From: a bacterium
GTDB taxonomy: Bacteria > Patescibacteriota > Minisyncoccia > UBA11713 > 2-01-FULL-45-33
Assembly: GCA_030648495.1 (NCBI GenBank)
Contig: JAUSHV010000045.1
Coordinates: 1 to 54,804, forward strand
Reading direction: 5' to 3'
DNA length: 54,804 nucleotides
Positions 3,499 through 38,927 of the stretch are shown here, one piece after another. Below the pieces are notes generated by a model. That model searched no databases, was not told the DNA's origin, and saw only the letters and a program-made list of their open reading frames with translations. How positions within the stretch are numbered: position 1 is the stretch's first letter; each line of letters opens with the position of its first letter. Both the position numbers and the translations under genes were made by a program.

Positions 3499-5094
3499 CT
3501 ACATCTTCTCGGGGGCGGCAATGCCCATCAAGGTAAGTGTTTGTTTTAGAGTTTTTTTGGTTGCCGAAACCAAAGCCAGGCGGGCTTGGGTTAGCTCTTT
3601 ATTTTTCGTATCTATCACTAAACATTTTTCATAAAAATTCGTAAAGGTTTGCGCGAGTTCGTAAACATATTTAGTGAGCCTGTGTGCTTGATAGTCATCG
3701 GTAATGTCTTCGATAATTTCGTGGAGCTGAAGTATTTTTTTGATGAGAGCCAGTTCTTCGGGCTTATCAAGAAGCATAAGGTCGGCTTTCTTGCCCGGCT
3801 TCCCTTTCCGTAAAATACTGCATGAACGCGCGTGCGCGTATTGAACATAATATACGGGATTTTTCTTGCTTCTTTCTTTTGCCAAATCCATATCAAAATC
3901 CATGTGGGTATTTGGGCTACGTTCCAAAAAGAACCACCTCGCGGCGTCTACCCCGACTTCTTTTAACAATTCATCCAAAGTCACAAACTCTCCGCTCCGC
4001 TTGGACATTTTTACTTCCTTTCCTCCTGAAATTAAACGAACAAGCTGCATGATAATAATTTGCAATCTAGCCGGCTCAACACCAATCGCCTCCACGCCTT
4101 TTTTCATGCGCTCTATATAGCCATGATGATCCGCTCCCCAAATATCTATTGCGATATCAAATTTTCTTTTCATAAATTTGTCATAATGATAGGCTAAATC
4201 AGCCAAAAAATAGGTTGACTCTTTATTGGACTTTATTACCACGGCATCTGCCAACCATAGAGCGCCTTCTTTTTCATGAAGAACTTTTTTCTTATTTAAA
4301 AATGTAAGGATTTTTTTTAGCTCGTTTTTTTTGTGCAAATTTTTGTCTTCCGAATACCAGACATCAAATTTTATTCCTGCTTTTATAAGAGATACTTTTA
4401 TTTCTTTAAGCAAACTCGCTGCCGCCTGCGCCGCCGTTTTTTCTTTTAATTTTTTGATGTATTCGCCCTTATAAAGCTCTTCGCGCGCGGGGATTTTTCC
4501 TTCCGCCGCCAAAATGGACTCGCCTAAAAGCTTTATCTGATTTCCGGCATCATTTATATAATATTCGCGAGTAACTTTGCGTCCAACAGCACTCAAAACA
4601 TTCGCGAGCGCATCGCCGTAAAATCCTCCTCGTCCATTTGCCATAGTTAAAGGCCCCGTCGGATTCGCTGAAATAAATTCTATGTTGATTTTTTTGCTAG
4701 TCTCGCGCTTTCCGTTTCGCTCGGTCTTAACCCTCTCTCCGGGGGCTCCGACGCCCTCGCGCTCCGAAAAACGCTCGCCTCTTCGCGAAAAAATCGAAAG
4801 GTTTTCGACTAAGGCCTCGCGCGCAATAAAAAAATTCAAAAAGCCTGGACCTGCGGATTCGATCCTTTCAATGATTTTTCCCAACTTGGGAGCTCGGCTT
4901 CCAAGCGTGGCTTTCATCCATTCCGCAACTTCTTTCGGTCCGCCAGCTGGCGGATTTCCAATTTTCTTAGCCAGCACCAAAGCAATGTTCGATGAATAAT
5001 CTCCATGCTCGGAGTTCTCCGGGCGTTCAACGGAAAAAACCGTGCCCTTTGGCACCAATTTTTCTATTTCTTCTCTAATTTGCGCGCGAAACAT
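3499..5094 (-). CDS. argS: Arginyl-tRNA synthetase
   Basis: 531 aa. Motifs: EFISANPTGPL, DIWGADHHGY, KMSKRSGEFVTLDELL, and a C-terminal anticodon-binding helix region ending ..GIAAPEKM. Confidence 0.9.
   Translation of the reverse strand: MFRAQIREEIEKLVPKGTVFSVERPENSEHGDYSSNIALVLAKKIGNPPAGGPKEVAEWMKATLGSRAPKLGKIIERIESAGPGFLNFFIAREALVENLSIFSRRGERFSEREGVGAPGERVKTERNGKRETSKKINIEFISANPTGPLTMANGRGGFYGDALANVLSAVGRKVTREYYINDAGNQIKLLGESILAAEGKIPAREELYKGEYIKKLKEKTAAQAAASLLKEIKVSLIKAGIKFDVWYSEDKNLHKKNELKKILTFLNKKKVLHEKEGALWLADAVVIKSNKESTYFLADLAYHYDKFMKRKFDIAIDIWGADHHGYIERMKKGVEAIGVEPARLQIIIMQLVRLISGGKEVKMSKRSGEFVTLDELLKEVGVDAARWFFLERSPNTHMDFDMDLAKERSKKNPVYYVQYAHARSCSILRKGKPGKKADLMLLDKPEELALIKKILQLHEIIEDITDDYQAHRLTKYVYELAQTFTNFYEKCLVIDTKNKELTQARLALVSATKKTLKQTLTLMGIAAPEKM
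4696..4795. repeat. Repeat family B copy, in frame inside argS
   Basis: 4727-4754 (ttaaccctctctccgggggctccgacgc) matches the reverse complement of 33651-33678 at 27 of 28 positions. Flanking blocks tctcgcgc and cgctcgcct are also shared. Visibly GC-richer than the rest of the gene. Confidence 0.8.
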
Positions 5095-14369: not shown

Positions 14370-14399
14370 AGCCTTATTATGTCTCTTTTTTTTGTTTTG

Positions 14400-14749
14400 T
14401 GGAAGTGCCGGGAATCGAACCCGGGTCGGAAAAGTTTGAATTCGGCGGTTGACAAGCTTAGTTGCTCAGCGTTAGCCAAGACTTTTGCCCTTATTCAAAT
14501 GTTAAGGCGGGCTTATTTAACATTGCCTCGCTAATATTACACCCGGATTCTTCTTAGCGAGAATCAAAAGACCGGATGCCTACGCGTTAAGCGTAAGAAG
14601 TGGCAAGCTGCATTGGCGAACCAAAAACAGCAGCTACTTTTTTAAATAAGTTTGCACTTATTGTGTTGTGAAGATAATTTTAAGAGCGAGCTTCACATAC
14701 TCTGCCTGAACGCGTGAAACCGTACTCTTCCTCGAGGCCGATCACTCCC
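14400..14749 (-). ncRNA. ssrA: tmRNA (SsrA)
   Basis: Minus-strand 5' GGGAGUG pairs with 3' CACUUCC-A, giving a 7-bp acceptor stem with a G3-U wobble. T-arm CCGGG-UUCGAUU-CCCGG. Internal tag ORF GCA AAC .. TAC GCT TAA = ANLFKKVAAVFGSPMQLATSYA*. CCA is not encoded. smpB is adjacent. Confidence 0.85.
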
Positions 14750-14779
14750 ATATTGGTAAAACCTAAACCCTTTCCTCCG

Positions 14780-14871
14780 GCGCAACATTTTTTAAGACAC
14801 GGATATTTTCTTGCTAGAAAATTCCTCGTGCTTGCGCCGGTCGCGCTCGCAAGGTCTTCAAAAATATTCGC
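14780..14871 (-). repeat. Repeat family A, copy 1 (sense on the minus strand)
   Basis: The reverse complement aligns end to end with 14952-15041 and with rc(33517-33612). See findings. Confidence 0.8.
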
Positions 14872-14951
14872 CCTCGGGAAGCGTTATTTTCGGTTTTTTT
14901 ATTTAAACGAGAATAAAAATTTTACTGGCGCTTTCCTAAAGTTGGCGCGGG

Positions 14952-15041
14952 CGCAAACTTTGCAAGACCTTGCGCAGGGCGACGGCCCGAGCAGAGCAAT
15001 CCGCCAGCAGGCGGATATGCGTGTCCTTGCAAATTTTGTGC
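14952..15041 (+). repeat. Repeat family A, copy 2 (sense on the plus strand)
   Basis: gcaaactttgcaagaccttgcgcag-GGGCgacgGCCC-gagcagagcaat-CCGCCagcaGGCGG-atatgcgtgtccttgcaaattttgtgc. Confidence 0.8.
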
Positions 15042-15082
15042 CAAGACAACAGAAAGCGCTCGCTAAAATTTTTATTCCCTAT

Positions 15083-15529
15083 TCAAATCTCTTTCAAAGT
15101 TCTCTCAATCTTTCGCTTGTCCTCGCGCTCTTTGATGCGCGCCCGTTCGTCGTATTTTTTGAGCCGCCGCGCGACCGCAATTTCTAGCTTGATTCTGTTA
15201 CCTTTAGTATATACCTTTATTGGCAGTATTGTCAAGCCCTTTTGGGCGACCTTACCAAGCAGGTAATCAATCTCTTTTTTAGTCAGCAAAAGCTTACGTT
15301 CACGCGTGGGATTATATTCTTTCGGGGTGTTTTTTGGCTGATAGGGAGAGATATTCGCGCCGACCAGAAAAAATTCTCCGTGCCTAGGAAAAATATATGT
15401 TCCCTCTAAATTCATGTGGTGAGTTTTTACGGATTTCACCTCCAAACCCAAAAGTGAAATACCGGCTTCATAAGTTTCGAGCATCTCAAATTCGTGCCAC
15501 GCTTTTCTATTTTCCGCTAAAGAAGCCAT
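15083..15529 (-). CDS. smpB: SsrA-binding protein
   Basis: 148 aa: NRKAWHEFEMLETYEAGISLLGLEVKS.., and a basic C-terminal tail. Confidence 0.9.
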   Translation of the reverse strand: MASLAENRKAWHEFEMLETYEAGISLLGLEVKSVKTHHMNLEGTYIFPRHGEFFLVGANISPYQPKNTPKEYNPTRERKLLLTKKEIDYLLGKVAQKGLTILPIKVYTKGNRIKLEIAVARRLKKYDERARIKEREDKRKIERTLKEI

Positions 15530-31354: not shown

Positions 31355-32232
31355 CCCGAAATTAATTTCAATGTGCCGTTGCTAATGCTTAACTTAATCG
31401 TTCCGTCCAAGTCAGTGCGGAAAATTTTTGCACCGATAGCTTCCAGATTTGAAAGTGTTTGTTGGGTAGGATGTCCGTAACGATTTTTTGCGCCAACCGA
31501 AATTATGGCATATTCGGGTTTTGTGGCTTCGAGAAAAAATGTATTGCTTGAAGTCTTAGAACCGTGATGCCCGACCTTTAAAACATCTATGTCGCCGACC
31601 GCGTCCTCATAAACAAGCCGCGCCTCTATATTTTTCTCCGCATCTCCCATAAATAAGATTTTTTTGTCTTCAAAATTAAGCTCGCCGACGACGGTGGCGT
31701 CATGCACGTTTTTAAGGACCTCTCCATCATACGAGCGTTCCGGATACAAAAATTTCAAAACTGCGCCACCATAGAAATACATTTCTACAGGGCTATCAAT
31801 AATAATTTTTTTAATATTTTTAGCTTTTATAATCCGCTCAAATTCATGATATTCAGCGGTGTTATAGTCGGCGCCGCTCTCTATTACCATACCGATCTTG
31901 TATCGATTAAGCACATCTATAAGCCCTGTAACATGGTCGGCGTGTTGATGCGTGAGTATTACCAAATCAATTGAATTATCATAGTACGGCATTACACGAC
32001 CTAACTCCGAAAGAACTTTTGTGTTCGGTCCGCCATCGATTAATATTTGTGTGCCGTCCTTGGCCGATATAAATTCAGAATCTCCCTGCCCCACATCAAA
32101 AAAATAAACAGAGAGATCCGGTTCCGCCGCTTTTTTAAAAACAGAGGACCAAATAACAAAATTAAAACCGAAAAACAACAATATTACACAGCTTAAAATT
32201 TGTTTTCTATAAATTTCAAAAAACTTTCGCAT
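31348..32232 (-). CDS. comEC: ComEC C-terminal metallo-beta-lactamase domain, as a separate ORF
   Basis: N-terminal TM segment, FFDVGQGDS, ILTHQHADHV, VGHHGS. Confidence 0.8.
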   Translation of the reverse strand: MRKFFEIYRKQILSCVILLFFGFNFVIWSSVFKKAAEPDLSVYFFDVGQGDSEFISAKDGTQILIDGGPNTKVLSELGRVMPYYDNSIDLVILTHQHADHVTGLIDVLNRYKIGMVIESGADYNTAEYHEFERIIKAKNIKKIIIDSPVEMYFYGGAVLKFLYPERSYDGEVLKNVHDATVVGELNFEDKKILFMGDAEKNIEARLVYEDAVGDIDVLKVGHHGSKTSSNTFFLEATKPEYAIISVGAKNRYGHPTQQTLSNLEAIGAKIFRTDLDGTIKLSISNGTLKLISGK

Positions 32233-33823
32233 AATGTTTGTATGCCCAATAAAAAAGACATGCGTAAACCGACGCCAGCAAGAAGAAAGGCAAAAAACTA
32301 AATTGAATCATGCTAAAAGAAAGCGACCCGAAAAATTTAACAAAATAGATTTGATAAGAAATCAATAAGTAAGCCGCGCTTGCGATGATTTTTCCTAAAA
32401 ACACGGAGGCGAAAGCTGATATCGCACCTAAAAAACTAAAAAGCATAACGGCAGGCACCGCCCATAAAACAAGTATATTGACCAATGGGGAAAACCAAGA
32501 AATCGCCCCACCCCAGGATAAAAGCAGCGGCATAACGAAAATTTGCGCCGCAAAAGAAGATGAGGCGTTTTCCCGCAAACCGAAGGCTTTGGGCAGAAAC
32601 CAAAAAAACTTTTTAAAAAAAGGCGATGCGACAATAAGGCCTAGTGTTGCTAAAAAAGAAAGCTGAAACCCACGGTCAAAACGCATGAGCATCGGATTCC
32701 ATAAAACCATCAGAAACGCCGCCCAAATCAAGGCCAAGAGCGCGATATTTTTCCGCCCGCTTTTTAACGCCAAAAGTCCGATTATAGCCATAACAGCTGA
32801 ACGCACAGCTGCGGCCTCTGCCCCGGACATTAATGTAAAAGCCAAAATGGCAAATATTGCCAAACTCCATGCCGCCGTTTCAGAAACAATAAATCCAAAA
32901 AACGCCATTACAAATACTCCGACAATCGTAATATTGTAGCCCGACAAAACCAATATATGGATAGTCCCGCTTTTTCTAAAATCATCAATTAAATCTTTGT
33001 CCAAGACGCCCTGGTTTCCTAAAAGCATCCCGTCGGCCAAAGAAGCGTGCGGTTCAGGTAAAATATTTCTTAGATTTTCTTCAAATTTATCTTTGATGAA
33101 GAAAAGCGCGCTCTTTGCCTTAGTACCAAACAAAGTTTGTGTTTTCGTCAAATCGCTGACTTCAGGAAAAACCATCTCCGCGTAAATTTCGCTCTTTGCC
33201 AGATATTTTTTAACATCAAAATTTCCGAAGTCTTCCGGCTCCAAAATTTTTCCTTTTATCTCCAAAGTGTCGCCGTATTTATACTGCGGATAGATTCTTT
33301 TCGTTACCAAAATGCGGCCGAGGTCCGTCGAAACAACTATGCGCTGGGAATTTTCTGTCAGTTTCGCGGAGATAACCATGCCGCTCAAATTCATAACTTC
33401 ATCGTAATGCAAATGCAATTCGTCTTTTGCAATATTATTTTCAAAATATGAAAAACGCAGGATGCCGAGGAGGAAAAAGAAAATGAGCAGACAAAGCATT
33501 GCGCCCTTTACCTCAGCACCAAAGTTTCCAAGGACACGCATATTTTTCTGCTGAAAAATTTCTCTGCTCGTCCCGCCATGGCGGGACTGCGCAAGGTCTT
33601 GAAAACTTTGTGCTTTCGGTTCAGGCGAGCGCTGTTCGTATTTCGAATGCGCGTCGGAGCCCCCGAAGAGAGGGTTAAGCGCGAGAAATACGAATAGCGC
33701 AAGCATGAACCCTAACAAACCAAAAACCAAATAATTAGGAATATCAAAAAACGAGCGAAGCGCTACTCCGGTCAAAAACGCAAGAATTAAAAATGGGATT
33801 TTAAAATAAGCGCGCTGGTTCAT
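32216..33823 (-). CDS. comEC: ComEC/Rec2 competence channel, membrane domain
   Basis: 535 aa polytopic protein with an OB-like N-domain and the competence domain (HILVLSGYNITIV..). Overlaps the MBL ORF by 17 nt. Confidence 0.8.
   Translation of the reverse strand: MNQRAYFKIPFLILAFLTGVALRSFFDIPNYLVFGLLGFMLALFVFLALNPLFGGSDAHSKYEQRSPEPKAQSFQDLAQSRHGGTSREIFQQKNMRVLGNFGAEVKGAMLCLLIFFFLLGILRFSYFENNIAKDELHLHYDEVMNLSGMVISAKLTENSQRIVVSTDLGRILVTKRIYPQYKYGDTLEIKGKILEPEDFGNFDVKKYLAKSEIYAEMVFPEVSDLTKTQTLFGTKAKSALFFIKDKFEENLRNILPEPHASLADGMLLGNQGVLDKDLIDDFRKSGTIHILVLSGYNITIVGVFVMAFFGFIVSETAAWSLAIFAILAFTLMSGAEAAAVRSAVMAIIGLLALKSGRKNIALLALIWAAFLMVLWNPMLMRFDRGFQLSFLATLGLIVASPFFKKFFWFLPKAFGLRENASSSFAAQIFVMPLLLSWGGAISWFSPLVNILVLWAVPAVMLFSFLGAISAFASVFLGKIIASAAYLLISYQIYFVKFFGSLSFSMIQFSFLPFFLLASVYACLFYWAYKHYAKVF
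33517..33612 (-). repeat. Repeat family A, copy 4, in frame inside comEC
   Basis: rc = cacaaagttttcaagaccttgcgcag-TCCCGCCatGGCGGGA-cgagcagagaaat-TTTTCagcaGAAAA-atatgcgtgtccttggaaactttggtg. Confidence 0.85.
33623..33690 (-). repeat. Repeat family B copy, in frame inside comEC and adjacent to repeat A
   Basis: rc(33651-33678) matches 4727-4754 at 27 of 28 positions. Shares tctcgcgc and cgctcgcct. Confidence 0.8.
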
Positions 33824-37928: not shown

Positions 37929-38927
37929 CTATTTCCTTAAAATTTTAGCGGCCTCTTCCGGAGAAACCTTGACAATATCAATGCCCGCGCCCAATTCCAG
38001 TCCTCCCCAAATCGCCAGCCGCGGCAATATTTCCATGTGCCAATGATAATGCTTTTCATTTTCTTTTTTCGGCGGAGCAGTATGGATGAAAAAATTATAA
38101 TCAGGATTTTTGAGATTTTTATAAATTCTTCTGAAAACAACATGCATCGCGTCCGCAAGGTCTTTTTTCCGGCTTTCATCGATGATTTCAAATCTAGACT
38201 CATGATTTTTGGGGAATATTCTTATCTCGTAAGAGACTTTTGAGGCGTACGGCGCAATTACGGCGAAAGATTTATTTTGATAAATTATTCTTATTTTCTC
38301 TTTCATTTCCGATTTGAGCATATCGCAATGCACGCATCTCTTTGTGTTTGCAAAATATCTTCTGGAGCCTTCTAGGCTATTTGCCACATCTGGCGGAATA
38401 ATCGGCAAAGCAAAAATTTGTGAGTGAGGATGAGGCACAGAAGCCCCGGCTCGCGGACCGGAATTGTGTAAAATCAAAATAAATTCCATGCACGGCGCGG
38501 CTCTTAACGCCTGGTAGCGTAAAATATACGATTCTAAAATAATTTCGATTTCATCTTTATCCATTAATCCGAACGGCTTCATGTGGTCGCGCATAATGAC
38601 AAGCTCCTGAAATCCGTTTCCCGGAGTGGATTCATAGAGACCGCGCTTTATTACAGGCACGCAAGTCTTATTGGTTATGACTACCGGATATTTATTTTCG
38701 TACACTCTTACCAACCAGTCTTTCGCGTCGGCTTTTCCTTTCTTGGGCAACCAAAGCAAATTCTTGCCTTGTTCAGACTGGACGATGTTTTCGAACGGAC
38801 ACTTCGACTTGGGAAGCGCCTTAGTTGGTTCGCGAGTAAAAAACATCGGTTTTTTTGATTTTTGCGCGGAAATTAAAACCCAGTCACCGGAAACAAGGTC
38901 TTTTCTGAATTCAATTATTTTATTCAT
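37929..38927 (-). CDS. galT: Galactose-1-phosphate uridylyltransferase-like HIT-family enzyme
   Basis: KCPFE plus VPHPHSQIFALP (HxHxQ). Confidence 0.75.
   Translation of the reverse strand: MNKIIEFRKDLVSGDWVLISAQKSKKPMFFTREPTKALPKSKCPFENIVQSEQGKNLLWLPKKGKADAKDWLVRVYENKYPVVITNKTCVPVIKRGLYESTPGNGFQELVIMRDHMKPFGLMDKDEIEIILESYILRYQALRAAPCMEFILILHNSGPRAGASVPHPHSQIFALPIIPPDVANSLEGSRRYFANTKRCVHCDMLKSEMKEKIRIIYQNKSFAVIAPYASKVSYEIRIFPKNHESRFEIIDESRKKDLADAMHVVFRRIYKNLKNPDYNFFIHTAPPKKENEKHYHWHMEILPRLAIWGGLELGAGIDIVKVSPEEAAKILRK

What the first reader, a model, noticed from the sequence alone, without database searches (positions are those of the whole stretch)
14780..15041. Head-to-head pair of a ~90-nt three-helix repeat (family A) between smpB and ssrA, with helices kept by compensatory changes
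Three full copies align end to end when read in one sense: rc(14780-14871), 14952-15041 and rc(33517-33612).

Conserved unpaired blocks are AAGACCTTGCG(C)AG, (C)GAGCA.AG.AAT, the loop AGCA, and ATAT(G/C)CGTGTC(C)TT.

The internal hairpins differ in sequence but keep their pairing:
- Hairpin 2 stem is TTTTCT/AGAAAA, CCGCC/GGCGG or TTTTC/GAAAA, always with loop AGCA.
- Hairpin 1 is GCGC/GCGC, GGGC/GCCC or the perfect palindrome GTCCCGCC-AT-GGCGGGAC.

The ~25-nt ends pair with each other (CAAAGTTTTCAAGACCTTGCGCA with TATGCGTGTCCTTGGAAACTTTG). Several of the mismatches are G-U only in the stated sense, which hints at structure selected at the RNA level.

Copy 1 is in the same sense as tmRNA and about 30 nt upstream of its 5' end. 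Copy 2 is inverted, about 80 nt away. A smpB-ssrA co-transcript could therefore fold into a long imperfect duplex, a possible processing site.

I do not recognise this as a named REP, MITE, ribozyme or riboswitch family.
Basis: seen in the sequence. Interest (0 to 1): 0.78.

Follow-up and report, generated by a model that had tools for sequence, protein, structure and literature searches.

The report
In-frame palindromic repeat element in CPR bacteria
The two hairpin repeats between smpB and the tmRNA gene are copies of a dispersed palindromic element of Giovannonibacteria and related bacteria that mostly sits, in frame and without stop codons, inside essential genes, much like the palindromic elements of Rickettsia, and is not a tmRNA processing signal.

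Summary
The window holds three copies, at 14758-14897(-), 14909-15079(+) and 33509-33621(-). Each has a 65-71-nt core with two internal hairpins, closed by a long stem.

Pattern scans of genomes and metagenomes gave 43-46 distinct copies in Candidatus Giovannonibacteria, Nomurabacteria and other Parcubacteria. On these, 94.5% of cells pair and 29 of 36 pairs show changes on both sides.

The tmRNA reading fails:
- Five related smpB-ssrA spacers (4 to 310 nt) have no copy.
- The spacer RNA folds as two separate hairpins, not as a duplex between the copies.
- The two spacer copies belong to different subtypes, so they are independent insertions.

About 31 of 43 copies lie in frame inside long ORFs (ComEC in the window; LeuRS, IleRS, CysRS, GatB, RecR, HrcA, MPG elsewhere), in either orientation. 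Orthologous sites differ in presence, orientation, subtype or loss of the core.

The conservation pattern is unusual. The core is 92-100% identical where the flanking coding DNA is 73-80% identical. The arms vary freely. In some intergenic copies they are perfect 42-50-bp palindromes running out to the neighbouring gene's stop codon.

Best reading: a selfish element like the Rickettsia palindromic elements (RPEs), defined by its core. Nothing matched in Rfam, and I found no paper describing it.

The parts
14758..14897 (-). Family-A copy 1 (subtype 2: GCG-AG ... GCACGAGGAAT ... TATCCGTGTCTT). The core is 14794-14858. The imperfect arms reach to 8 nt upstream of the tmRNA 5' end.
   Evidence: nhmmer E=7e-27; covariance model 86.9 bits; spacer fold; subtype from the alignments
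14909..15079 (+). Family-A copy 2 (subtype 1: GCGCAG ... GCA-GAGCAAT ... TATGCGTGTCCTT), antisense to smpB and ssrA. The core is 14964-15028. The arms are about 55-60 nt each and end 3 nt from the smpB stop codon.
   Evidence: nhmmer E=1.6e-28; covariance model 100.9 bits; 44 Watson-Crick arm pairs; spacer fold
33509..33621 (-). Family-A copy 3 (subtype 1 with a long hairpin 1). The core is 33530-33600. It lies in frame, in the sense orientation, inside the ComEC ORF and encodes ..KAQSFQDLAQSRHGGTSREIFQQKNMRVLGNFGAE..
   Evidence: host ORF carries Pfam Competence and DUF4131
32216..33823 (-). ComEC-like gene (535 aa). It carries copy 3, a family-B copy and the core-less remnant of another family-A copy.
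33113..33154 (-). Remnant of a family-A copy in ComEC. Both arms are present (..AAAACACAAACTTTG|TTTGGTACTAAG..) and the 72-nt core is missing in frame. The same site holds a sense subtype-1 copy in L001, an antisense subtype-2 copy in L037 and an antisense subtype-1 copy in L080.
14399..14749 (-). tmRNA gene (ssrA). It is a neighbour of the elements, not part of them.
15083..15529 (-). smpB gene. It is a neighbour of the elements, not part of them.
33611..33724 (-). Family-B palindromic repeat, a different family with the same architecture. It lies in frame in ComEC, immediately 5' of copy 3.
   Evidence: (I1, I14)
4685..4800 (+). Second family-B copy, inside the ArgRS ORF 3499-5094(-).

Best explanation
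Family A is a selfish, non-autonomous palindromic DNA element of Parcubacteria (CPR, Patescibacteria). It resembles the Rickettsia palindromic elements and miniature inverted-repeat elements (MITEs).

Shown:
- It is dispersed and multi-copy.
- Its presence, orientation and subtype vary between orthologous sites.
- Most surviving copies are stop-free, in-frame insertions read through as part of essential proteins. The rest sit in short intergenic spacers such as smpB-ssrA.
- The unit under constraint is a 47-76-nt three-way-junction core: AAGAC / CUUGCG(C)AG, hairpin 1, GAGCA(C)GAG(C/G)AAU, hairpin 2 with an A(G/C)(C/U)A loop, then UAU(G/C)CGUGUC(C)UU.
- The closing arms are free in sequence.

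Inferred:
- The core is the cis-acting module recognised, probably as a folded single strand, by a trans-acting enzyme that has not been identified. This would explain why the core stays nearly invariant while the hairpin stems covary.
- The arms are kept and lengthened by DNA-level processes that correct palindromes (intrastrand template switching).
- Recombination between the arms flips the core, and gene conversion between copies swaps subtypes.
- The head-to-head pair upstream of ssrA is two independent insertions. Their long hairpins may incidentally affect smpB-ssrA transcript stability or read-through, but they are not needed to make tmRNA.
For: **Spread.** One exact pattern gave 16 copies in Giovannonibacteria, Nomurabacteria and Parcubacteria genome bins. 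After the metagenome scan there were 66 hits, 44 of them unique, and 46 with the covariance model. There are 7 copies in one bin (MFIK01) and 5 in another (MFHL01).

**In-frame coding copies.**
- 32 of 43 copies were first scored as spanned by long ORFs, 22 sense, 9 antisense and 1 (L074) doubtful.
- Hosts by Pfam are ComEC, LeuRS, IleRS, RecR, GatB, HrcA, CysRS, a class-V aminotransferase and MPG.
- Copies inside ORFs are mostly stop-free in several frames, whereas intergenic copies are not.
- Intergenic copies lie between complete, unrelated genes.

**Turnover at orthologous sites.**
- The ComEC site holds a sense subtype-1 copy, an antisense subtype-2 copy, an antisense subtype-1 copy, or arms without a core.
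- The copy 3 site is filled in the window and in L037, truncated in L080 and empty in L001.
- MPG has a sense copy in one genome and an antisense copy in another.
- The aminotransferase site holds subtype 1 in one genome and subtype 2 in another.
- The CysRS copy is partly deleted in L013.
- The smpB-ssrA spacer varies between relatives.

**Constraint on the core.** Orthologous copies of the same subtype have cores 92-100% identical, against 73-85% for the flanking coding DNA and 72-87% for the arms.

**Core and arms are uncoupled.**
- L038 and L059 have identical cores, and L054 differs from them by one loop base. Their arms are unrelated: 42 nt and 50 nt perfect, and 57 nt at 93%.
- The arms include the ftsZ stop codon and last codons in L004, start at the upstream gene's stop codon in L054, and reach to 3 nt from the smpB stop in the window.

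**Fold.** 94.5% of cells are paired, and all 19 pairs of the outer stem plus 7 of 10 pairs of hairpin 2 change on both sides.

**Strand asymmetry.** G:T mismatches outnumber A:C by 30:11. In copies antisense to their host gene the count is still 7:2.

**Closest precedent.** RPEs are 105-146 bp, form a long stem-loop, are fused in frame in 19 protein genes, and also occur in the tmRNA and RNase P RNA genes (PMC2229807, PMC10969869).
Against: - No transposase or other partner gene was identified.
- No target-site duplication or sharp element boundary could be defined.
- No autonomous parent element was found.
- No insertion was caught as polymorphic within one population. All the evidence for mobility comes from comparing species.
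- The very strong conservation of the core across genera could instead mean a function for the host.
- All 22 sense copies inside ORFs enter in the same frame (..QDLA..), and all antisense ones in ..QGL(A/S)K... The other frames are often open too. Random insertion followed by a filter against stop codons does not explain this. It needs either selection on the encoded peptide or some unknown specificity.
Confidence: 0.6

Rival explanations
1. The element is a host-beneficial structured RNA. When transcribed, the long hairpin with its conserved junction would act as a transcription terminator, an RNase III or RNase E processing site, or an mRNA stabiliser. Copies would be kept because they regulate neighbouring genes, smpB-ssrA included.
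For: - Several intergenic copies start right at the stop codon of the upstream gene: ftsZ in L004, groEL in L011, a SpoU methylase gene in L019, a methionine aminopeptidase gene in L054, and smpB in the window.
- The core is more conserved than neighbouring essential coding sequence.
- G:U mismatches are in excess on the sense strand.
- Other bacterial repeat elements are known to affect the stability of adjacent mRNAs (PMC2229807).
Against: - Copies occur in both orientations relative to transcription, and the core is equally conserved in each. For example, the antisense L005 copy has a core 100% identical to its orthologous copy in L033.
- About 70% of copies are inside ORFs.
- Copies are not retained at orthologous positions, such as the smpB-ssrA spacers.
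- The terminator scan of the spacer found no more sites than in shuffled sequence, 2 against 1.4 expected.
Confidence: 0.15
2. The core is a new small ribozyme, or an RNA-borne mobile element copied through an RNA intermediate by a reverse transcriptase. The three-way junction would be the catalytic or recognition fold.
For: - The junction nucleotides are conserved, with covarying stems and an outer helix of free sequence. That is the pattern typical of small ribozymes.
- Sense-strand G:U excess.
Against: - No match to any Rfam ribozyme family even at E<=10.
- 22 sense-orientation copies sit inside intact essential genes such as aminoacyl-tRNA synthetase genes, gatB and recR. Efficient self-cleavage would destroy those mRNAs.
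- No reverse transcriptase or other partner gene was identified near any copy. The loci were not searched for one systematically.
- The element was not found in viral contigs.
Confidence: 0.07
3. One reading: the inverted pair forms a long duplex in an smpB-ssrA co-transcript and serves as a processing site for the tmRNA precursor.
For: - The two copies are inverted, adjacent, and lie immediately upstream of ssrA.
- In some relatives smpB and ssrA are only 4-5 nt apart, so co-transcription is plausible.
Against: - None of five related spacers contains a copy.
- The minimum-free-energy fold pairs each element with itself.
- The two copies are of different subtypes.
- The family is overwhelmingly found elsewhere, mostly inside ORFs.
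Confidence: 0.03
4. The repeat is a protein-level module. The peptide ..QDLAQRDGASRAIxQQxxMRVL.. would be the selected unit, spreading because it adds a useful surface feature to proteins.
For: - All 22 sense copies inside ORFs enter in the same reading frame, although other frames are often open.
- Copies persist at the same site in orthologues that are only 60-76% identical as proteins: CysRS, IleRS and the aminotransferase.
Against: - Intergenic copies exist, as do antisense copies that encode a different peptide.
- Some copies shift frame inside the core (L065, L027, L047, L078).
- The stem nucleotides covary and change the peptide as they do so (AILQQEN, AIPQQRD, AIRQQAN, EIFQQKN).
- The conservation is at the nucleotide level and includes third codon positions.
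Confidence: 0.05

Closest known systems
Rickettsia palindromic elements (RPE-1 to RPE-8 and later families; Ogata et al. 2000 and 2002, as summarised in PMC2229807 and PMC10969869)
   Same: - Roughly 100-150-bp dispersed palindromic repeats that fold into a long stem-loop through pairing of the 5' and 3' ends.
- A large share of copies are fused in frame, without stops, into conserved housekeeping genes.
- Copies also occur at or next to stable RNA genes. RPEs occur inside the tmRNA and RNase P RNA genes, and here two copies lie just upstream of ssrA.
- Small genomes, no known transposase, and no clear target-site duplication.
   Different: - The host is an unrelated phylum (Patescibacteria/CPR, not Alphaproteobacteria). 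Sequence similarity to RPEs was not tested.
- Here the interior three-way-junction core is conserved while the terminal arms are free in sequence and variable in length (about 11 to 65 bp).
- Orthologous sites flip orientation and swap subtype.
Classical bacterial MITEs (Correia/NEMIS, ERIC, RUP, Nezha)
   Same: - Small, non-coding, multi-copy elements with inverted ends and a stable hairpin transcript.
- Occasional in-frame copies within genes.
- Presence or absence differs between relatives.
   Different: - MITEs are defined by conserved terminal inverted repeats inherited from a parent insertion sequence, and by target-site duplications (often TA).
- Here the ends are the variable part.
- No parent insertion sequence and no target-site duplication were found.
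REP/BIME elements with RAYT transposases, and IS200/IS605-derived hairpin elements
   Same: - Elements defined by structure, whose hairpins are recognised on one DNA strand.
- The sense-strand G:T excess and the roughly 3:1 bias toward the coding strand would fit a single-strand mechanism. This is inference only.
   Different: - REPs are 20-40-nt extragenic palindromes with a conserved 5' GTAG, and neither feature is present here.
- No Y1/HUH transposase gene was linked to the element.
- Family A is mostly intragenic and has a three-way junction.
[quoted passage not shown]
   Same: Coding DNA with dyad symmetry, thought to spread as mobile DNA.
   Different: PARCELs are tandem 25-residue repeats in accessory surface-protein genes. 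They are not single insertions in housekeeping genes and have no conserved non-palindromic core.

Membership tests
RPE-like protein-coding palindromic elements | Dispersed multi-copy repeat of about 100-150 bp | tested here: met
   3 copies in the window. 46 covariance-model hits across Parcubacteria loci. 5-7 copies per genome bin from one exact pattern alone.
RPE-like protein-coding palindromic elements | Palindromic, with the 5' and 3' ends pairing into a long stem-loop | tested here: met
   Every copy has arms with 11-65 Watson-Crick pairs. The outer stem is 95% paired, and all 19 of its pairs change on both sides.
RPE-like protein-coding palindromic elements | In-frame, stop-free insertion in conserved protein genes | tested here: met
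   About 31 copies at about 20 distinct sites. Hosts identified by Pfam. Orthologues lack the core or the whole copy.
RPE-like protein-coding palindromic elements | Sequence homology to a described RPE family, and a Rickettsia or Rickettsiales host | not tested
   No RPE consensus was available to compare with. The hosts here are Giovannonibacteria, Nomurabacteria and Parcubacteria, so this would at most be an analogue, not a member of an RPE family.
RPE-like protein-coding palindromic elements | The inserted segment is translated and tolerated at the protein surface | not testable with these tools
   Inferred only, from intact ORFs in essential single-copy genes. It needs metaproteomics or protein structures.
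Classical MITE | Terminal inverted repeats conserved in sequence among copies and shared with a parent insertion sequence | tested here: not met
   The arms differ completely between copies whose cores are identical or differ by one base (L038, L059, L054). No parent element was seen.
Classical MITE | Target-site duplication flanking the element | tested here: inconclusive
   Comparisons of filled and empty sites gave no clean boundary. The ComEC site shows TTTG on both sides, but both TTTG are also present in the core-less allele.
REP/BIME (RAYT-associated) | Extragenic 20-40-nt imperfect palindrome with a conserved 5' GTAG | tested here: not met
   The element is mostly intragenic, has a three-way-junction core, and has no GTAG head.
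Any Rfam family (ribozymes, riboswitches, cis-regulatory RNAs) | Covariance-model match | tested here: not met
   Only tmRNA passes the gathering threshold in the window. At E<=10 the region 14700-15100 gives only three chance-level hits with E>3.8.
   Spacers of 4, 5, 54, about 103 and 310 nt carry no family-A copy. Only L082, whose SmpB is 93% identical to the window's, has a copy, and it is in the opposite orientation to copy 1.
Intron-like intervening sequence removed at the RNA level | Interrupts genes regardless of frame or stop codons, leaving split genes on either side | tested here: not met
   All genic copies keep the frame and lack stops. Intergenic copies lie between complete, unrelated genes.

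The most novel reading that the evidence does not exclude
The conserved three-way-junction core is itself the mobile or active unit, which would make this a new, structure-defined class of element. The core alone would move, or be copied, into new sites, and would then seed the growth of a perfect palindrome from the local flanking DNA by fold-back or template-switch synthesis.

This would explain near-identical cores with unrelated, perfect 42-50-bp arms that start at the neighbouring gene's stop codon. The core would be recognised as a folded single strand of DNA or RNA by an enzyme that is still unknown.
Probability: 0.15. Interest if true: 0.85.

Novelty: new variant of a known kind. Interest (0 to 1): 0.6.

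Why it matters
Palindromic repeats that sit in frame inside protein-coding genes were described as a peculiarity of Rickettsia. Their way of spreading has never been worked out.

Here an analogous element sits in essential genes of CPR bacteria, whose genomes are small and compact. The hosts include aminoacyl-tRNA synthetases, GatB, RecR and ComEC. That would show the phenomenon arose independently in another lineage with reduced genomes.

This family also offers a concrete starting point for finding the mechanism. It has a sharply conserved 47-76-nt core with covarying hairpins, which could be used to look for the partner enzyme.

There are practical consequences too:
- The element breaks and chimerises metagenome assemblies.
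- It inflates apparent protein divergence in CPR marker genes.
- Its arms show that "compensatory" stem changes can arise from DNA-level palindrome maintenance as well as from selection on RNA.

Tried and rejected
- **Rfam.** Searches at gathering thresholds and at E<=10 found nothing but tmRNA.
- **Viral contigs.** A scan with the element pattern gave 0 hits.
- **Source contig or very close strains.** Exact-protein look-ups with SmpB, L35 and L20 of the window found nothing on record.
- **Hosts by peptide search.** The 46-aa alignment returned no hits. A search of 1.84 billion representative proteins with the copy 2 peptide gave only three hits. Two are unrelated repeat proteins. One is an assembly chimera, RecR::element::CysRS.
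- **Target-site duplication or sharp termini.** None could be defined, because the arms grade into the flanks.
- **Intron-like reading.** Rejected: copies keep the frame, and intergenic copies sit between complete, unrelated genes.
- **Terminator reading for the spacer.** The consensus scan found no more sites than in shuffled sequence.
- **Fourth AAGACCTTGCG at 38154.** A chance match inside a coding region.
- **Literature.** Searches for CPR, Patescibacteria or Parcubacteria with palindromic, MITE or intragenic repeat terms found no description of this element. The library is incomplete, so this is weak evidence of novelty.
Full report
**1. What is in the window**

- tmRNA lies at 14399-14749(-) (ARAGORN; Rfam RF00023 at 100.5 bits).
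- smpB lies at 15083-15529(-). Its nearest relatives are SmpB proteins of Candidatus Giovannonibacteria, at 72-93% identity.
- A profile of the three finds only these three in the 54.8-kb window, each at E about 1e-27, with the next hit at E = 0.7.
- Each copy folds better than all 200 shuffles.
- A fourth exact AAGACCTTGCG at 38154 is a chance match inside a coding region.
- Copy 1 and copy 2 are longer than reported. In the minimum-free-energy fold of the whole 333-nt spacer, each element pairs with itself. Copy 2 with its arms is 14909-15079 and copy 1 with its arms is 14758-14897. An 11-nt linker lies between them, and there is no duplex between the two copies.
- Copy 3 is not intergenic. 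It lies in frame inside a 535-aa ComEC-like ORF (Pfam Competence and DUF4131).

**2. The family outside the window**

One exact pattern, AAGACCTTGCG-N30-60-TATSCGTGTC, was scanned across 185,579 species genomes. It hit 23 loci. Fourteen of these, carrying 16 copies, are Giovannonibacteria, Nomurabacteria, Parcubacteria or unnamed uncultured-bacterium genome bins. The others, such as Arthrobacter and Nocardia, gave no profile hit and look like chance matches.

The metagenome scan added 58 loci. Profile search then gave 66 hits, of which 44 are unique. A covariance model built from 41 copies finds 46. Nothing was found in viral contigs.

There are two subtypes.

| Subtype | Diagnostic blocks |
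|---|---|
| 1 | GCGCAG ... GCA-GAGCAAT ... TATGCGTGTCCTT |
| 2 | GCG-AG ... GCACGAGGAAT ... TATCCGTGTCTT |

They differ by a compensatory GCA/UGC to GGA/UCC change at the base of hairpin 2. Copy 1 is subtype 2, and copies 2 and 3 are subtype 1.

**3. Structure**

On the 46-sequence alignment:
- 94.5% of cells form standard pairs, against 35-50% when the partners are slid by 1-3 columns.
- 29 of 36 pairs change on both sides.
- The covariation score is 0.541, against 0.07-0.14 for the slid controls.
- None of 500 shuffles reaches the observed values.
- All 19 outer-stem pairs covary, as do 7 of 10 pairs in hairpin 2 and its extension.

Hairpin 1 varies in length, from almost nothing (L038, L059, L054) to 8 bp (copy 3, L080) or longer (L037, L011). 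It is always self-complementary.

This alignment was fitted to the model, which inflates the paired percentage somewhat. An independent MAFFT and RNAalifold run already showed the hairpin 2 covariation. Arm alignments scored symmetrically, copy by copy, gave 1093 Watson-Crick pairs against 99 mismatches.

**4. Where the copies sit**

- 32 of 43 unique copies were first scored as spanned by long open frames: 22 sense, 9 antisense and 1 doubtful (L074, near an ORF start). They occupy about 20 distinct sites.
- Hosts are housekeeping genes: LeuRS, IleRS, CysRS, GatB, RecR, HrcA, MPG, a class-V aminotransferase, MiaA-like and glycosyltransferase genes, and ComEC.
- The Pfam domains of several hosts are split or stretched at the insertion.
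- All genic copies keep the reading frame.
- Sense copies always enter in the frame reading ..QDLA(Q/S)... Antisense copies always enter in ..(A/S)QGL(A/S)K...
- Some copies change frame inside the core through 1-nt indels that are compensated further on (L065, L027, L047, L078).
- Genic copies are largely stop-free in several frames. Intergenic copies are not.
- The 11 intergenic copies lie between complete, unrelated genes, so none splits a gene.

This is the signature described for the Rickettsia palindromic elements (RPEs): 105-146 bp, a long stem-loop, in-frame fusions in 19 conserved protein genes, and insertions in the tmRNA and RNase P RNA genes (PMC2229807; PMC10969869).

**5. Turnover**

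Orthologous sites differ between genomes.

| Site | What the genomes carry |
|---|---|
| ComEC "FPE" site | L001: sense subtype 1. L037: antisense subtype 2. L080: antisense subtype 1. Window (33113-33154): both arms, with the 72-nt core missing in frame |
| Copy 3 site in ComEC | Filled in the window and L037, truncated in L080, absent in L001 |
| MPG | Sense copy in L022, antisense copy in L058 |
| Class-V aminotransferase | Subtype 1 in L028, subtype 2 in L027 and L047 |
| CysRS | Partly deleted in L013 |

A flip of the whole core between its own inverted arms is what recombination between the arms would produce. The subtype swaps suggest gene conversion between copies. Both are inference.

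**6. An unusual conservation pattern**

- For orthologous copies of the same subtype, the core is 92-100% identical. The flanking coding DNA of the same essential gene is 73-85% identical, and the arms are 72-87%.
- The arms can be entirely unrelated while the cores are nearly the same. L038 and L059 have identical cores and L054 differs by one loop base. They come from the same metagenome. Their arms are 42 nt (100% complementary), 57 nt (93%) and 50 nt (100%), and are unrelated in sequence.
- In L004 the 44-nt perfect arms include the stop codon and last codons of ftsZ.
- In L054 the arm starts at the stop codon of the upstream gene.
- In the window, copy 2's arms run to 3 nt from the smpB stop.
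- The longest arms are all intergenic.
- In IleRS of L079, a perfect 13-bp extension of the palindrome coincides with flank codons that differ from the orthologue L020. Without an outgroup the direction of that change is not established.

Together these points say that the core is the constrained unit. The arms look as if they are made or remade locally. Replication template switching is known to create and perfect hairpins (PMC8794818). This also means that compensatory change in the arms does not by itself demonstrate selection on RNA.

**7. Strand asymmetry**

G:T mismatches outnumber A:C in the element's sense strand:
- 30:11 in arm alignments scored symmetrically. By copy, 20 favour G:T and 6 favour A:C.
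- 50:18 on the covariance-model alignment.
- Still 7:2 in copies that are antisense to their host gene. This argues against a purely transcription-linked mutation bias. The numbers are small and the copies are not independent.

It does not say whether that strand is RNA or single-stranded DNA.

**8. The tmRNA hypothesis**

| Locus | SmpB identity to the window | smpB-ssrA spacer | Family-A copy |
|---|---|---|---|
| L085/L086 | 76% | 5 nt | none |
| L089 | 74% | 4 nt | none |
| L087 | 75% | 54 nt | none |
| L083 | 78% | about 103 nt | none |
| L088 | 72% | 310 nt | none |
| L082 | 93% | contig ends | antisense subtype 2, 9 nt after the smpB stop |

The spacers were searched with the covariance model with filters off, at E<=1. 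In L082 the contig ends inside the copy.

So the elements are not a conserved part of the operon. The window's pair is two insertions of different subtypes. The closest relative differs from the window in the content and orientation of the spacer.

**9. What it is not**

- It has no Rfam match.
- It is not a tRNA-like gene.
- It is not a REP element: there is no GTAG head and it is mostly intragenic.
- It is not a classical MITE by the defining test of conserved terminal repeats.
- It is not an intron: the frame is always kept and no gene is split.
- An efficient self-cleaving ribozyme is hard to reconcile with 22 sense copies inside essential mRNAs.

**10. Verdict**

The interpretation as a tmRNA-linked RNA signal is not supported.

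The best-supported reading is a selfish palindromic element, analogous to the RPEs, in CPR bacteria. It is tolerated as in-frame insertions and in short spacers. It has a conserved three-way-junction core, probably the module recognised in cis. Its arms evolve freely and lengthen locally.

Shown:
- the element's distribution;
- the fold and its covariation;
- the in-frame genic locations;
- the turnover at orthologous sites;
- the uncoupling of core and arms.

Inferred:
- mobility by way of a trans-acting enzyme;
- folding as a single strand;
- arm growth by template switching.

A second family with the same architecture (family B) occurs in the window, in ComEC and ArgRS, and in other loci. 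The phenomenon is therefore general in these genomes.

Noticed in passing
window 33611-33724 (-) and window 4685-4800 (+): A second palindromic repeat family (family B) has a conserved core, CTTAACCCTCTCTYCGGGGGCTCCGACGC, and variable arms. One copy lies in frame in ComEC, directly 5' of copy 3. The other lies inside the ArgRS ORF 3499-5094(-). More copies are at L037 2750-2863, L009 4124-4239 (within the GatB ORF), L065 6080-6169 and L080 3291-3365.
   Followed up: partly
window 33113-33154 (-): ComEC carries both arms of a family-A copy, but the 72-nt core is missing in frame. The same site is occupied by full copies of different orientation and subtype in L001, L037 and L080.
   Followed up: yes
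L054 4403-4607: 49-nt arms (96% complementary) surround a 107-nt core that is a distant relative of family A (covariance model E = 1.6e-5, antisense). This suggests a wider superfamily of core-plus-arms elements.
   Followed up: partly
L013 5450-6925 (CysRS orthologue): Besides a partly deleted family-A copy, this CysRS has a separate 24-aa insert (ARNATPASNASRSDAGWHSVAGGD) that is absent from two orthologues. It may belong to yet another in-frame repeat family.
   Followed up: no
L087 1961-2010; L088 1977-2284: In two Giovannonibacteria relatives, a leader sequence upstream of ssrA (TTTACCCCCACAC..) is complementary to the 5' end of tmRNA (..GTGTGGGGGTGAA). The arms are 19-25 nt and are separated by 12 nt in one locus and 258 nt in the other. 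This could pair the leader with the acceptor arm in the precursor.
   Followed up: no
L083 3777-4907: A phage-type integrase gene and an HTH gene lie immediately downstream of the tmRNA gene. This is the usual arrangement of an island integrated at ssrA.
   Followed up: no
P0122 (207 aa); L082 3456-3514: A public protein is a chimera: a RecR N-terminal part, a family-A peptide, then a CysRS C-terminal part. The contig of the window's closest relative also ends inside a copy. The repeat evidently breaks and mis-joins metagenome assemblies.
   Followed up: partly
L079 9647-13174 (IleRS); L016 600-3611 (LeuRS): These Giovannonibacteria synthetases carry whole extra domains inserted in them: a histidine-phosphatase domain (aa 492-659) in IleRS and a NUDIX domain (aa 394-519) in LeuRS. 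The IleRS gene called in L085 shows the same His_Phos_1 hit.
   Followed up: no
window 14758-15079; L052 2568-2793; L047 309-769; L037 2171-2760; L009 2738-3693; L005 4733-5928: Six loci hold two family-A copies within about 1 kb of each other. L052 has an antisense-then-sense pair 13 nt apart inside one ORF, the same head-to-head layout as the window's pair. This hints at local hopping or a preference for inserting near existing copies. Its significance was not established.
   Followed up: no
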